64,000 nt of DNA from Planctomycetota bacterium (GTDB lineage: Bacteria > Planctomycetota > SZUA-567 > H5-PLA8). The stretch spans positions 19,726-83,725 of the forward strand of contig JBAXUS010000004.1 of the NCBI GenBank assembly GCA_037129555.1, read 5' to 3'. Each line of letters begins with the position of its first letter. Positions within the stretch are counted from its first letter, which is position 1. The notes under the pieces were generated by a model. The model did no database searches and had not been told where the DNA came from. It saw only the letters and a list, made by a program, of their open reading frames with translations. Positions 13,659 to 15,569 of the stretch are shown here, piece after piece. The translations under genes were made by a program, and so were the position numbers.

Positions 13659-14189
13659 ATGTCGTTGAGAATTCTGGATGCGTTTCCTTCAGCGGCCTTG
13701 AATGGTTTACCGCCGTTTACATCCGACGGTGTTCTCCCACCGGGTGATTTTGCGCCGGGACTGTCCGACTTTGAAGAGCGGTTCGTGGAAACAGGCGACC
13801 GAGAGCGTCGGCAATTTCTGTACGAAGGGTTGAACCGCTACCGTCGGGCGTTGCTGGATACAGGAATTCCGGAGACAGCGTGGATGTTAATCAACGGAAG
13901 TTTCACGACCTCCAAGTCATCGCCCGGTGATATTGATATTGCCGTTGAGGTGCCTATCGCTAAAATAGAAGACATGCGAGATCACCCAGCCGACGAATTG
14001 TTTGACCGCGACTCCGTGAAACTCCGATTTCAGTGCGACGCTTATGCCATCTACACATTGCCATTTCACGATCCCAATTACGAAAATTTCACGCAGGCTT
14101 ACGTCAGAGTTTGGACACAGTTGTTTGGAATGACGCGATACAAGACGACCAAAGGACGTGTGTGGATAAAAGCTGGAGGGTTGAAATAA
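13659..14189 (+). CDS. Nucleotidyltransferase-fold protein (minimal Pol-beta-type NTase motif), function unknown
   Basis: ~176 aa. INGSFTTSKSSPGDIDIAVEV is the G[SG]-x9-13-DxD nucleotidyltransferase signature. It starts 18 nt after the cyclase stop. It is the real C-terminal part of track ORF 13071..14189; the Arg-rich N-terminal extension of that ORF overlaps the cyclase gene in another frame and is rejected. Local GC is lower than the surroundings. Confidence 0.55.
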   Translation: MSLRILDAFPSAALNGLPPFTSDGVLPPGDFAPGLSDFEERFVETGDRERRQFLYEGLNRYRRALLDTGIPETAWMLINGSFTTSKSSPGDIDIAVEVPIAKIEDMRDHPADELFDRDSVKLRFQCDAYAIYTLPFHDPNYENFTQAYVRVWTQLFGMTRYKTTKGRVWIKAGGLK

Positions 14190-14488
14190 TGTACGACGAT
14201 GATGATTCGCCAAGGGATATAACTCTTATTCGCGAGGAAATTGACGCTCTGACCGGTCTATTGAATAATTTACCAGAGGACTACAAATATTGCGCTGGAT
14301 TCCTGTCCTACAGACAGCGGATCGCCGAGTTGAAACAGGAACTCCTCGATAGTTGGTGTTTGTCGTTTGAAAAGCTCAATGATCGGATTCAAGCGTCACC
14401 AGAACGCCGTACCAATGAATGTGTCAAAGAAGTCGCAGAGCTTTGCGCGGTCTTAAAAAATTCAGTGCCTCACTTAATGGCACATTGA
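14189..14488 (+). CDS. Small hypothetical protein (99 aa), translationally coupled to the NTase gene
   Basis: ATG overlaps the upstream stop (TAATG). MYDDDDSPRDITLIREEIDALTGLLNNLPEDYKY... No recognisable domain. Lowest GC in the islet. This is the downstream part of track ORF 14033..14488. Confidence 0.4.
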   Translation: MYDDDDSPRDITLIREEIDALTGLLNNLPEDYKYCAGFLSYRQRIAELKQELLDSWCLSFEKLNDRIQASPERRTNECVKEVAELCAVLKNSVPHLMAH

Positions 14489-14597
14489 CTTAATGACACT
14501 TTGACCCTATTTTCATCGCTTTCTATTTCCGAGCGTTCGTGCCCCTTTGCGCGTCTGCATGGAATTGAATCTGTTTCTTTGAACCACCGGAACCCAC

Positions 14598-15569
14598 ATG
14601 TCAACCAAGATCAAACTCAAACAACTCAAGCCCAACCCTTACCGCGATATGGCGCACTACCCCATGCATCGCGAGAAAATTGAGATGCTCAAGGCCAGCA
14701 TCCGTACCACCGGTTTTTGGGATAATCTGCTCGTTCGCAAAAGTGGCTCCAGCTACGAAGTCGCCTACGGCCACCATCGTCTGGAAGCCCTTCGCGAACT
14801 CGTCAAAGAAAACGTCATCGACGACGATTACGAACTCGAACTCCCCGTCCGCAACCTCGACGACGCCACCATGATCCGCATCATGGCCAGCGAGAACGTT
14901 GAAGAATACCGTGTCACATCCGACATCATCGACGAGACTGTTCGTGTCACGCGCGAATACATTCAGCGCGAAACCAAAACGCCCGCGAACGAAATCGGAG
15001 CCGCTGACATCAGCCAGTTCCTCGGCGGCGGATGGAATGAAGACAAAGTCGCTTCATCGCTCCAACGCCTCATCCTCTTTGATCGCGGCACTCTCAAGCG
15101 CGAACAAGTCAGCGGACTTTCTCACACCGCCGCGAAAGGCATCCAGCGCGAAGTCGCCAAGGTTGAACGCGCCGTCGTCAAAGATGGCCTCGAAAGCGCC
15201 GATGACCCGACCGACATGACCGAAGACGAACGCAAGAGCATCAGGCATCAGGCACAGAAAGTCGCCAAGCATGTCGCCGGCGTACTATCCGATCACGTTC
15301 GCAGCGGTGGCAGCATCGGCAAGATGAAAGAGAAATCGCTCGACGCCCAAGCCGAAATGGTCCCAGAAGACGCGCCGGAAGACGAACGCAAACTCAGCAC
15401 CATCGACGCCGCTGCCCGTGCCGTCAACGCACGCGATTTCCAACGAAAAATCGAGATGCTGATGAAGTACAAAGAATACATGTCCCCCGGTGCCAAACAC
15501 GAACTCGCTGGAACGTTGCGCGAAGTCATAGGCTGGTCGAAGCAGATGCTGGAAGTGTTGCAGGAGTGA
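14598..15569 (+). CDS. ParB/Srx-fold (ParB-like nuclease domain) protein with acidic/Lys-rich C-terminal half
   Basis: 323 aa. The N-terminus IKLKQLKPNPYRD....VAYGHHRLEALRE matches the ParB N-terminal (ParBc) domain (GxHR..A box). No HTH or HNH motif is recognisable in the C-terminal half. Confidence 0.6.
   Translation: MSTKIKLKQLKPNPYRDMAHYPMHREKIEMLKASIRTTGFWDNLLVRKSGSSYEVAYGHHRLEALRELVKENVIDDDYELELPVRNLDDATMIRIMASENVEEYRVTSDIIDETVRVTREYIQRETKTPANEIGAADISQFLGGGWNEDKVASSLQRLILFDRGTLKREQVSGLSHTAAKGIQREVAKVERAVVKDGLESADDPTDMTEDERKSIRHQAQKVAKHVAGVLSDHVRSGGSIGKMKEKSLDAQAEMVPEDAPEDERKLSTIDAAARAVNARDFQRKIEMLMKYKEYMSPGAKHELAGTLREVIGWSKQMLEVLQE

What the first reader, a model, noticed from the sequence alone, without database searches (positions are those of the whole stretch)
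13659..15569. Lower-GC three-gene islet: NTase-fold protein, overlapping small ORF, ParB/Srx-like nuclease-domain protein
The three genes are tightly packed. The first starts 18 nt after the cyclase stop. The second starts on the TAATG overlap. The third follows ~110 nt later. GC content is visibly lower than the flanks, about 45-50% against about 58-60%, which suggests horizontal acquisition. A minimal nucleotidyltransferase (GS..DxD) followed by a small partner recalls MNT/HEPN-type or AbiE-type toxin-antitoxin and defence modules, but the small protein lacks an R-x4-6-H HEPN motif. The ParB-like protein has the GHHRLEA box but no HTH or HNH region, so it is not a classical partition ParB or GmrSD. 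It could be an uncharacterised defence or addiction module, or a remnant of a mobile element.
Basis: partly seen in the sequence, partly recalled or inferred. Interest (0 to 1): 0.55.

Follow-up and report, generated by a model that had tools for sequence, protein, structure and literature searches.

The report
Inserted nucleotidyltransferase–partner cassette beside native ParB-like gene
The "three-gene islet" is really a small, horizontally inserted two-gene cassette: an uncharacterised nucleotidyltransferase and a short partner protein, probably toxin–antitoxin-like or anti-phage, sitting next to an unrelated, vertically inherited ParB-like gene.

Summary
All three ORFs exist at the stated coordinates, but they are not one unit.

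**g1 and g2 are an inserted cassette.**
- g1 (13659-14189) is a Pfam DUF6932 protein with a Pol-beta nucleotidyltransferase fold. It also matches PADLOC candidate PDC-M63A.
- g2 (14189-14488) overlaps g1's stop codon and has its own GGAGGG ribosome-binding site.
- Only g1+g2 are GC-poor. Their GC3 is 0.54 and 0.46, against a window mean of 0.66.
- Close relatives have the cyclase gene directly followed by the ParB-like gene, so g1+g2 lie in a ~0.95 kb accessory spacer.

**The pairing is conserved.** In about 50 loci from many phyla, a g1-type DUF6932 gene is followed, usually with an ATGA overlap, by a gene sharing g2's ~55-aa N-terminal module. That module has invariant E, L, P, Y, R and L. 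The C-termini are swappable: two transmembrane helices (weakly SLATT-like), a ~320-aa domain, or nothing.

**The short form looks functional.** Short partners like g2 recur and are under purifying selection.

**g3 is native.** g3 (14598-15569) has native GC and more than 260 homologues, mostly in Planctomycetota. Its synteny with downstream genes is conserved, and its fold resembles ParB/Noc/KorB.

**Best reading.** g1+g2 is a toxin–antitoxin-like or abortive-infection module driven by the nucleotidyltransferase. The mechanism is inferred, not shown.

The parts
13659..14189 (+). g1: 176-aa DUF6932 protein with a Pol-beta-type nucleotidyltransferase fold (component A of the cassette)
13896..13937 (+). 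Predicted active-site motif of g1: G80-S81 ... D91-x-D93 (NGSFTTSKSSPGDIDIAVEV)
   Evidence: G80, S81, D91 and D93 are invariant in 17 homologues. The third carboxylate, D127 (14037-14039), is nearly invariant.
14175..14180 (+). GGAGGG Shine-Dalgarno sequence for g2, located inside the 3' end of g1, 8 nt before the g2 ATG
   Evidence: Read directly from the sequence.
14189..14488 (+). g2: 99-aa partner protein (component B). Its ATG overlaps the g1 TAA by 1 nt. It has no transmembrane segment and no effector domain.
   Evidence: It has no Pfam, NCBIfam or PHROG family. Two searches of billions of proteins found only itself. An HMM built from 45 partner N-termini of other loci, with the window excluded, hits it at E 1.8e-14 and hits nothing else in the six-frame window.
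14207..14374 (+). Conserved N-terminal module of the partner (aa 7-62): a ~55-aa conserved segment (secondary structure not predicted here) with invariant E, L, P, Y41, R44 and L
   Evidence: Shown by the alignments and HMM. The same module lies immediately downstream of a g1-type DUF6932 gene in almost every one of ~55 loci with an intact A gene and enough downstream sequence, mostly with an ATGA overlap.
13642..14597 (.). Accessory interval between the conserved cyclase-peroxidase gene and the conserved ParB-like gene. It is 956 nt here, against 103 nt (L036) and 136 nt (L034) in relatives without the cassette.
   Evidence: No flanking direct or inverted repeats, tRNA gene or integrase were found.
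14598..15569 (+). g3: 323-aa ParB/Noc/KorB-like protein. It is a native, lineage-conserved gene and is NOT part of the cassette.
   Evidence: Matches ParB_N at E 1e-6 (29.1 bits, cut-off 26.3). It has at least 260 homologues, and every organism name attached to them is Planctomycetota. Its GC3 is native. It keeps conserved synteny with the 639-aa and ~355-aa downstream genes. Foldseek matches Noc, ParB, KorB and Spo0J at E 2e-6 to 5e-4.

Best explanation
g1 and g2 form a self-contained, translationally coupled two-gene cassette. It was acquired horizontally and sits between two native genes of a Planctomycetota genome.

- **g1** is a small, probably active Pol-beta-fold nucleotidyltransferase of the uncharacterised family DUF6932. 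This is the 'A' protein of the untested PADLOC candidate system PDC-M63.
- **g2** is a minimal member of a previously undescribed partner family. Its only conserved part is a ~55-aa N-terminal module with an invariant Tyr-x-x-Arg.

**Most likely mechanism (inferred, not shown).** The pair works like a toxin-antitoxin or abortive-infection module. The nucleotidyltransferase is the active, potentially toxic enzyme. The partner's N-terminal module binds it and keeps it in check. It could do so by occluding the enzyme or by being nucleotidylated on the invariant Tyr. In longer family members, the variable C-terminal domains would add sensing or killing functions. Those domains include two transmembrane helices with weak SLATT similarity and a ~320-aa M63B-like domain. 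A more distant DUF6932 branch pairs with an HTH plus ImmA-type peptidase partner that lacks this N-terminal module. The window's copy is the effector-less 'core only' form.

g3 is an unrelated, vertically inherited ParB/Noc/KorB-like DNA-binding protein that happens to lie next to the insertion site.
For: **Shown**
1. Only g1+g2 have deviant GC.
2. Relatives have empty sites. Where the ParB-like protein is 90-92% identical and the cyclase 83-86% identical, the two genes are adjacent with a 103-136 nt spacer.
3. A related contig, L041, carries the cassette at the same site but far more diverged: g1 67% and the first 42 residues of the partner (all that the contig holds) 40%, against 87% for the flanking peroxidase tail.
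4. The pairing is conserved. The partner's N-terminal module follows a g1-type DUF6932 gene in loci from Acidobacteriota, KSB1, Planctomycetota, Gammaproteobacteria, Myxococcota, Bacteroidota and metagenomes, mostly with a 4-nt ATGA overlap.
5. Neighbouring genes across 15 loci share nothing, so the pair is the unit.
6. The g1 catalytic residues are invariant, and dN/dS is 0.14.
7. Short partners without an effector domain recur (63-64, 99, 106-120 and 157-163 aa). Among these, the 106-120 and 157-163 aa classes have dN/dS of 0.18-0.26. This suggests that A plus the N-terminal module is enough for a selected function.

**Supporting the idea that the nucleotidyltransferase is the toxic partner**
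- On a Nostoc plasmid, a DUF6932 gene is coupled to an RmrA-like protein with an HTH and an ImmA-type peptidase (E 2e-11).
- That protein class is an experimentally established antitoxin paired with diverse toxins (PMC10440598).

**Supporting a defence or addiction context**
- In lambdoid phage mEpX1, the PDC-M63A/B pair sits directly after cI, which is the rexAB position in phage lambda (position known from the literature).
- In L005 the pair lies next to TacA-GNAT and Fic genes.
- In L011 it lies near integrases.
Against: - No experiment supports toxicity, neutralisation or defence. The only published test of PDC-M63AB, in E. coli NILS69, found no anti-phage phenotype.
- The direction of control is ambiguous.
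  - The closest structural neighbours of g1 are MNT-type antitoxins, not nucleotidyltransferase toxins.
  - The gene order, enzyme first and partner second, is that of MntA-HepT.
  - The commonest partner type carries a 2-TM domain with weak SLATT or '2TM effector' similarity (E 2e-4 to 0.08). That would normally be the killing part.
- If the partner is the effector, the window's 99-aa version is disarmed.
- The boundaries of the insertion cannot be defined at nucleotide level, and no mobility genes or repeats were found.
- dS values are saturated for the window-to-L041 comparison.
Confidence: 0.55

Rival explanations
1. Type VII-like system with the roles reversed. In this model the partner is the toxin or effector, using a membrane 2-TM or M63B-type C-terminal domain. 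The DUF6932 nucleotidyltransferase is the antitoxin or regulator. It would nucleotidylate the invariant Tyr of the partner's N-terminal module, as MntA AMPylates HepT. Under this model the window's 99-aa partner has lost its effector, and the cassette is disarmed or merely regulatory.
For: - The gene order and the 4-nt overlap resemble MNT-HEPN pairs.
- The partner module has an invariant Tyr-x-x-Arg.
- About half of the partners carry two hydrophobic helices with weak SLATT_4, SLATT_1 or PADLOC '2TM effector' hits.
- The window's partner aligns with the pre-membrane half of the 2-TM partners and stops where their first transmembrane helix begins.
Against: - Partners with no effector domain at all (63-163 aa) recur in several lineages, and two of these length classes (106-120 and 157-163 aa) are under purifying selection.
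- g1 itself is under purifying selection with an intact active site, even though it is paired with an effector-less partner.
- A distant DUF6932 pairs with an RmrA-type antitoxin.
- The SLATT hits are below every curated threshold.
- g2 has no HEPN motif.
Confidence: 0.25
2. Decaying remnant. The g1-g2 pair would be a leftover of a once longer mobile element or defence system, with no current function in this genome.
For: - g2 is shorter than most family partners and lacks their C-terminal domain.
- No mobility genes or repeats flank the pair.
- g2 deviates from the family consensus at a few 80%-conserved positions.
- Several related loci (L025, L087, L088) carry frameshifted A genes.
Against: - Both ORFs are intact.
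- g2 keeps a strong ribosome-binding site and the stop-start overlap.
- All invariant residues of both proteins are present.
- g1 dN/dS is 0.14.
- The sequence is identical in four independent metagenome assemblies.
- Comparable short partners elsewhere are under purifying selection.
Confidence: 0.12
3. A three-gene functional unit, in which the ParB-like protein cooperates with the nucleotidyltransferase pair, for example as a DNA sensor or nuclease.
For: - The three genes are on the same strand and close together, with a 109-nt spacer.
- ParB/Srx-fold domains do occur in some defence proteins (general knowledge).
Against: - No ParB-like gene was found in the DNA held around the DUF6932 gene (up to 6 kb each side) in any of the 24 DUF6932 loci checked.
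- g3 is present without g1 and g2 in L029-L038, always with the same downstream genes.
- g3 has native GC3.
- g3 is the most conserved gene of the neighbourhood, at 90-92% identity against 83-86% for the cyclase.
Confidence: 0.03

Closest known systems
PADLOC candidate system PDC-M63 (A+B), e.g. phage mEpX1 gp42/gp41
   Same: - g1 matches the PDC-M63A model (E 7e-19) and the same Pfam family, DUF6932.
- It has the same two-gene, overlapping A-then-B layout.
- The ~320-aa partners in some related loci weakly match PDC-M63B (E 2e-3).
   Different: - g2 does not match PDC-M63B.
- The mEpX1 partner lacks the N-terminal module found here.
- g1 is only about 30% identical to gp42.
- PDC-M63 is itself only a 'guilt-by-embedding' prediction, and the one test of it gave no phenotype.
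HepT-MntA (HEPN-MNT) type VII toxin-antitoxin systems
   Same: - A minimal Pol-beta nucleotidyltransferase is encoded first, with an overlapping small partner gene.
- MNT proteins are the nearest solved structures.
- The invariant Tyr in the partner recalls the AMPylated Tyr of HepT (literature knowledge).
   Different: - g1 has no NTP_transf_2 Pfam match.
- g1 is larger (176 aa) and has a conserved N-terminal extension.
- The partner has no HEPN fold signature or Rx4-6H motif.
AbiE / MenAT nucleotidyltransferase toxins (DUF1814)
   Same: The concept is the same: a nucleotidyltransferase-fold toxin held in check by a cognate protein, in small mobile two-gene modules with a role in abortive infection.
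   Different: - g1 has no DUF1814/AbiEii match.
- g1 is about half the size.
- The partner lies downstream and is unrelated to AbiEi or MenA.
- No tRNA-modifying activity is known for DUF6932.
RosmerTA (RmrT toxin + RmrA HTH/ImmA-peptidase antitoxin)
   Same: A distant DUF6932 gene on a Nostoc plasmid is translationally coupled to an RmrA-like protein. DUF6932 there occupies the position of a Rosmer toxin.
   Different: - The window's partner has neither an HTH nor a peptidase.
- The Nostoc partner lacks the N-terminal module of g2.
CBASS-type nucleotide-signalling systems with SLATT 2-TM effectors
   Same: A nucleotidyltransferase gene lies next to a gene encoding two transmembrane helices with weak SLATT similarity in many relatives.
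   Different: - The window's partner has no membrane domain.
- The partner has no recognisable nucleotide-sensor domain.
ParB / Noc / KorB CTP-switch DNA-binding proteins (comparison for g3 only)
   Same: - g3 matches the ParB_N domain above the Pfam threshold.
- Its GHHRLEA box aligns with GERRFRA, and its EN box is conserved.
- The fold match extends through the central DNA-binding domain.
   Different: - g3 scores below the TIGR00180 cut-off (31.8 against 58.45).
- No ParA gene lies nearby.
- The Glu-Arg of the GERR box is replaced by His-His.
- The C-terminal half is long and helical, and is specific to this mostly planctomycete family.

Membership tests
Pfam DUF6932 (PF22014) | Score above the curated gathering threshold over the full domain | tested here: met
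   g1 scores 92.8 bits against a cut-off of 27, covering profile positions 1-141 of 142.
PADLOC PDC-M63 | A component matches a PDC-M63A model | tested here: met
   E 6.8e-19, covering profile positions 17-147 of 152.
PADLOC PDC-M63 | Adjacent B component matches a PDC-M63B model | tested here: not met
   g2 has no PDC-M63B hit at E up to 1. The bona fide B protein, mEpX1 gp41, scores E 7.5e-45.
PADLOC PDC-M63 | Demonstrated anti-phage activity | not testable with these tools
   The system is an untested prediction. The one published knockout showed no effect.
MNT-HEPN (HepT/MntA) type VII TA | Nucleotidyltransferase belongs to NTP_transf_2 / MNT by sequence | tested here: not met
   No PF01909 or PF18765 hit at E up to 1. 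The profile search against PDB gives MNT 5yep only at E 0.65.
MNT-HEPN (HepT/MntA) type VII TA | hG[GS]x9-13Dh[DE]h catalytic signature and Pol-beta fold | tested here: met
   [not shown]
MNT-HEPN (HepT/MntA) type VII TA | Partner is a HEPN protein with an Rx4-6H motif | tested here: not met
   g2 has no Rx4-6H motif by direct reading and no HEPN family hit.
AbiE / MenAT | Toxin carries the DUF1814 (AbiEii) domain, and an upstream AbiEi/MenA antitoxin is present | tested here: not met
   g1 has no DUF1814 hit. The upstream gene is a Fer2-cyclase-peroxidase.
Toxin-antitoxin modules in general | Small two-gene operon with overlapping genes, patchy phyletic distribution and variable genomic context | tested here: met
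   Stop-start overlap is present here and in most of the related loci. The loci come from many phyla. Neighbouring genes are heterogeneous. Close relatives have empty sites.
Toxin-antitoxin modules in general | One product is toxic and the other neutralises it | not testable with these tools
   This needs expression assays.
CBASS-like (CD-NTase + SLATT effector) | CD-NTase/SMODS nucleotidyltransferase and an effector with a SLATT or other killing domain | tested here: not met
   [not shown]
Canonical chromosome/plasmid partition ParB (g3) | ParB_N domain with a GxxRxxA box | tested here: met
   PF02195 scores 29.1 bits against a cut-off of 26.3. GHHRLEA aligns with GERRFRA of Spo0J.
Canonical chromosome/plasmid partition ParB (g3) | Reaches the TIGR00180 parB_part cut-off, and a partner ParA gene is adjacent | tested here: not met
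   g3 scores 31.8 bits against a cut-off of 58.45. No ParA-type gene appears in the gene tables of the window region or of L029-L038.
Canonical chromosome/plasmid partition ParB (g3) | Central HTH DNA-binding domain | tested here: inconclusive
   Foldseek alignments to Noc, ParB and KorB span 230-260 columns of 190-220-residue targets that include the DNA-binding domain. No residue-level check was made, and no sequence-level HTH hit was found.

The most novel reading that the evidence does not exclude
DUF6932 and its partner could define a new, widespread family of 'plug-and-play' conflict modules. In this reading, a minimal nucleotidyltransferase covalently nucleotidylates the invariant Tyr of a ~55-aa N-terminal module, a type VII-like switch. 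That module gates interchangeable C-terminal outputs: SLATT-like membrane pores, the M63B domain, or none. The short form in this window would be the minimal switch. It would make the enzyme-substrate pair directly testable with two small proteins.
Probability: 0.2. Interest if true: 0.65.

Novelty: new variant of a known kind. Interest (0 to 1): 0.4.

Why it matters
DUF6932 is catalogued only as a domain of unknown function and as an untested defence candidate. This analysis adds three things.
- Its g1-type branch is almost always coupled to a partner whose only conserved part is a short N-terminal module with an invariant Tyr and Arg.
- That module carries swappable C-terminal domains.
- A 'core only' form, such as the one in this window, is maintained by selection.

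These points give a concrete two-protein system (176 aa and 99 aa) for testing how a minimal nucleotidyltransferase is controlled. They also offer a clean natural example of insertion versus empty site.

The analysis also corrects the annotation logic. The ParB-like gene is a conserved, mostly planctomycete ParB/Noc/KorB-like paralogue of unknown role, not part of a mobile islet.

Tried and rejected
- **Whole-database sequence searches with g2 alone.** The word-indexed search of 5.8 billion proteins and the exhaustive phmmer search of 1.84 billion representatives found only the protein itself. Its relatives became visible only through their position next to DUF6932 genes.
- **IMG/VR viral contig scan with the DUF6932 alignment.** No relatives were found.
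- **Signs of a mobile element.** I looked for flanking repeats, tRNA genes and integrases and found none.
- **Nucleotide-level insertion boundaries.** The intergenic spacers do not align with those of the empty sites.
- **Rfam scan of 13400-15800.** No match.
- **Promoter and terminator scan.** It returned only consensus-level matches of no clear meaning.
- **Recurrent neighbours of the cassette.** The 104 flanking ORFs of 15 loci share no recurrent family, so a 'defence island' context is not demonstrated.
- **Literature.** No paper mentions DUF6932.
- **Rejected family assignments.** I rejected HEPN-MNT, AbiE/MenT and CBASS membership for g1/g2, and GmrSD/DndB-type or three-gene readings for g3. 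The membership tests give the reasons.
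Full report
**1. Observation**

The three ORFs are real and lie at the stated coordinates.
- g1 is 13659-14189 (176 aa).
- g2 is 14189-14488 (99 aa).
- g3 is 14598-15569 (323 aa).

The spacing is as described.
- There are 17 nt between the cyclase stop and the g1 ATG.
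- g1 and g2 share a TAATG stop-start overlap.
- There are 109 nt between g2 and g3.
- g2 is preceded by a strong GGAGGG 8 nt upstream of its ATG (14175-14180). g3 has nothing comparable.

The compositional claim holds for only two of the three genes.

| Gene | GC | GC3 | z vs 42 window ORFs |
|---|---|---|---|
| g1 | 50.5% | 0.54 | -1.8 |
| g2 | 45.0% | 0.46 | -3.0 (lowest in the window) |
| g3 | 55.9% | 0.68 | +0.3 |

The window mean is 55.0% GC and GC3 0.66. The g1+g2 stretch (48.6% GC) lies in the lowest 1.9% of equal-sized windows. No tRNA gene, flanking repeat or Rfam family is present.

**2. What the genes are**

*g1.*
- It matches Pfam DUF6932 (E 3e-26), PADLOC PDC-M63A (E 7e-19) and phrog_9194.
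- Seventeen homologues at 39-67% identity keep G80, S81, D91 and D93 invariant, and D127 nearly so.
- The AlphaFold model is confident (pLDDT 92.5).
- Foldseek finds nothing significant in PDB.
- So the Pol-beta nucleotidyltransferase fold is supported, but g1 is not a sequence member of the MNT, AbiEii or CD-NTase families.

*g2.*
- It has no family match.
- It finds only itself in two searches of billions of proteins.
- The identical protein is recorded from a Planctomycetota MAG.

*g3.*
- It passes the ParB_N threshold.
- Its GHHRLEA box aligns with GERRFRA of Spo0J, and its EN box is conserved.
- Its model (pLDDT 90) matches Noc, CDP/CTP-bound ParB, KorB and Spo0J at E 2e-6 to 5e-4 over 230-260 columns. 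That span covers their N-terminal and DNA-binding domains.

**3. g1 and g2 are a conserved pair; g3 is not part of it**

Loci encoding DUF6932 homologues were collected from several sources.
- Metagenome look-ups.
- A scan of 185,579 species genomes, which gave 17 loci from Acidobacteriota, KSB1, Planctomycetota, Gammaproteobacteria, Polyangiaceae, Entotheonella, Bacteroidota and Bradyrhizobium.
- A metagenome scan, which gave 52 loci.

The pairing is consistent.
- In almost every locus with an intact A gene and enough downstream sequence, the next gene starts on an ATGA overlap. It begins with a ~55-aa module homologous to g2 residues 7-62.
- An HMM built from 45 unique partner N-termini, with the window excluded, hits g2 at E 1.8e-14 and nothing else in the six-frame window.
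- The module has invariant E, L, P, Y, R and L (consensus eE..dL..yl.glP...........Y..R..eL..el).

Beyond this module the partners differ.
- Partners of about 200-218 aa and 290-300 aa have two hydrophobic helices and weak, sub-threshold SLATT or '2TM effector' hits.
- Partners of 315-336 aa have weak PDC-M63B hits.
- Short partners of 63-64, 99, 106-120 and 157-163 aa have no extra domain.

The window's partner aligns with the cytoplasmic half of the 2-TM type. It ends exactly where the first transmembrane helix would begin, and no remnant lies downstream. Partners of the 106-120 and 157-163 aa classes are under purifying selection, with dN/dS of 0.18-0.26.

The 104 flanking ORFs of 15 loci share no recurrent family, so the pair is the unit. 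No ParB-like sequence occurs in the DNA held around the DUF6932 gene (up to 6 kb each side) in any of the 24 DUF6932 loci checked for it.

**4. Insertion versus empty site**

g3 behaves as a native gene.
- It has at least 260 homologues, with a smooth identity gradient from 92% to 45%. Every organism name attached to them is Planctomycetota.
- In relatives L029-L034, the orthologue is always followed by orthologues of the window's 639-aa secreted protein. In most of them the ~355-aa protein follows as well. The upstream side varies.

The closest relatives have an empty site.
- In L036-L038 the ParB-like protein is 92% identical and the cyclase 86%. In L034/L035 the figures are 90% and 83%.
- In these loci the Fer2-cyclase-peroxidase gene is followed directly by the ParB-like gene, with a 103 or 136 nt spacer.
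- The window has 956 nt there.

One short contig, L041, carries the cassette at the same place.
- It again starts 17 nt after the orthologous peroxidase stop.
- It is much more diverged than the flank: g1 67% and the first 42 residues of the partner (all that the contig holds) 40%, against 87% for the flank.
- g1 dN/dS is 0.14, although dS is saturated.

The cassette is therefore accessory in this clade. It was either gained once and lost in some lineages, or exchanged at a hot spot. Its exact ends cannot be defined, because the spacers do not align.

**5. Context elsewhere**

- In lambdoid phage mEpX1, a bona fide PDC-M63A/B pair (E 2e-41 and 8e-45) lies directly downstream of the cI repressor gene. 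In phage lambda that position holds the rexAB exclusion genes (position known from the literature).
- On a Nostoc plasmid, a DUF6932 gene is coupled to an RmrA-like protein with an HTH and an ImmA-type peptidase (E 2e-11). That class is an established antitoxin for diverse toxins (PMC10440598).
- In L005 the pair lies beside TacA-GNAT and Fic genes. In L011 it lies near integrases.
- PDC systems were predicted by 'guilt by embedding' in BREX, DISARM and type I restriction-modification loci, and are untested (bioRxiv 10.1101/2024.01.29.577857).
- Deleting PDC-M63AB in E. coli NILS69 changed nothing for ten phages (bioRxiv 10.1101/2024.12.20.629700).
- No paper mentions DUF6932.

**6. Mechanism (inference)**

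Four things are shown:
- an apparently active minimal nucleotidyltransferase;
- strict translational coupling to a partner;
- a short conserved partner module with invariant Tyr and Arg;
- modular C-termini, and selection on forms that consist of little more than that module.

The most economical reading is a toxin-antitoxin-like or abortive-infection module.
- The nucleotidyltransferase is the active, potentially toxic enzyme.
- The partner's N-terminal module is its cognate neutraliser or regulator. This resembles the 'linear neutralisation' layout described for modular antitoxins.
- The C-terminal domains act as add-on sensors or outputs.
- The RmrA-type partner in a distant branch supports the nucleotidyltransferase being the toxin.

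The main rival reverses the roles, as in MntA-HepT.
- The enzyme would nucleotidylate the invariant Tyr to hold a membrane effector in check.
- Supporting points are that MNTs are the nearest structures, the gene order matches, and the 2-TM partners look SLATT-like.
- Under that model the window's copy lacks its effector.

I put about 0.9 on the cassette and insertion claims and on excluding g3. I put about 0.4 on the specific direction of control. The overall confidence is 0.55.

**7. Comparison and novelty**

- By sequence, g1 is a member of DUF6932 and of the PDC-M63A model.
- The pair is not a PDC-M63 system as defined, because the B component does not match. It is also not an MNT-HEPN, AbiE/MenAT or CBASS system. 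The membership tests give the details.
- As far as these searches show, the partner family defined by the N-terminal module is undescribed.
- The finding is a new variant of a known, only computationally proposed kind of module.
- It is of moderate interest. It is not surprising in kind, but it offers a compact and testable system.
- g3 is an ordinary though uncharacterised, mostly planctomycete ParB/Noc/KorB-like gene.

Noticed in passing
window 12016-13641: A single 541-aa protein fuses a 2Fe-2S ferredoxin domain, a class III adenylate/guanylate cyclase domain and a haem peroxidase domain. It is conserved at 83-86% identity in related planctomycete contigs. This is an unusual redox-linked cyclase architecture.
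   Followed up: no
window 15712-17631 and 17650-18753: - The first gene encodes a 639-aa protein with a signal peptide, an Asn-rich low-complexity stretch and a C-terminal CxxCxGxG zinc-finger. It gives weak DnaJ_CXXCXGXG and Anti-TRAP hits.
- The second gene encodes a ~355-aa lipoprotein-like protein.
- The 639-aa gene follows the ParB-like gene in every relative whose contig extends far enough downstream (L029-L034, L038), down to 61% identity. The ~355-aa gene follows in most of these.
- This suggests a conserved gene cluster of unknown function.
   Followed up: partly
L030/L031 3325-6415; L032/L033 5861-6483: The variable region upstream of the ParB-like gene in relatives repeatedly holds other small toxin-antitoxin-like genes. 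These are a PemK-like pair plus a 96-aa NTP_transf_2 minimal nucleotidyltransferase in L030/L031, and a PIN gene plus a 73-aa gene in L032/L033. The site may be a hot spot for such cassettes.
   Followed up: no
L036 7331-7433: The 'empty site' spacer between the cyclase and ParB-like genes contains a long GC-rich inverted repeat (aaccgcgaccgc...gcggtcgcggtt). It looks like a terminator or REP-like element and is absent from the window.
   Followed up: no
L039 3507-4915 (phage mEpX1, NC_019709.1 28971-30379): The PDC-M63A/B pair of this lambdoid phage lies immediately downstream of the cI repressor gene and upstream of N. In phage lambda that slot holds rexAB (literature knowledge).
   Followed up: partly
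L025, L087, L088 (Bryobacterales and bog metagenomes): These loci carry a DUF6932 gene that appears frameshifted or truncated, followed by an intact 2-TM partner ORF. They may be decaying copies of the module.
   Followed up: no
window 3576-9626 (- strand): A very large ORF of about 2,017 aa lies upstream of the Ser/Thr kinase gene. It has no Pfam family on record in the matching contig.
   Followed up: no
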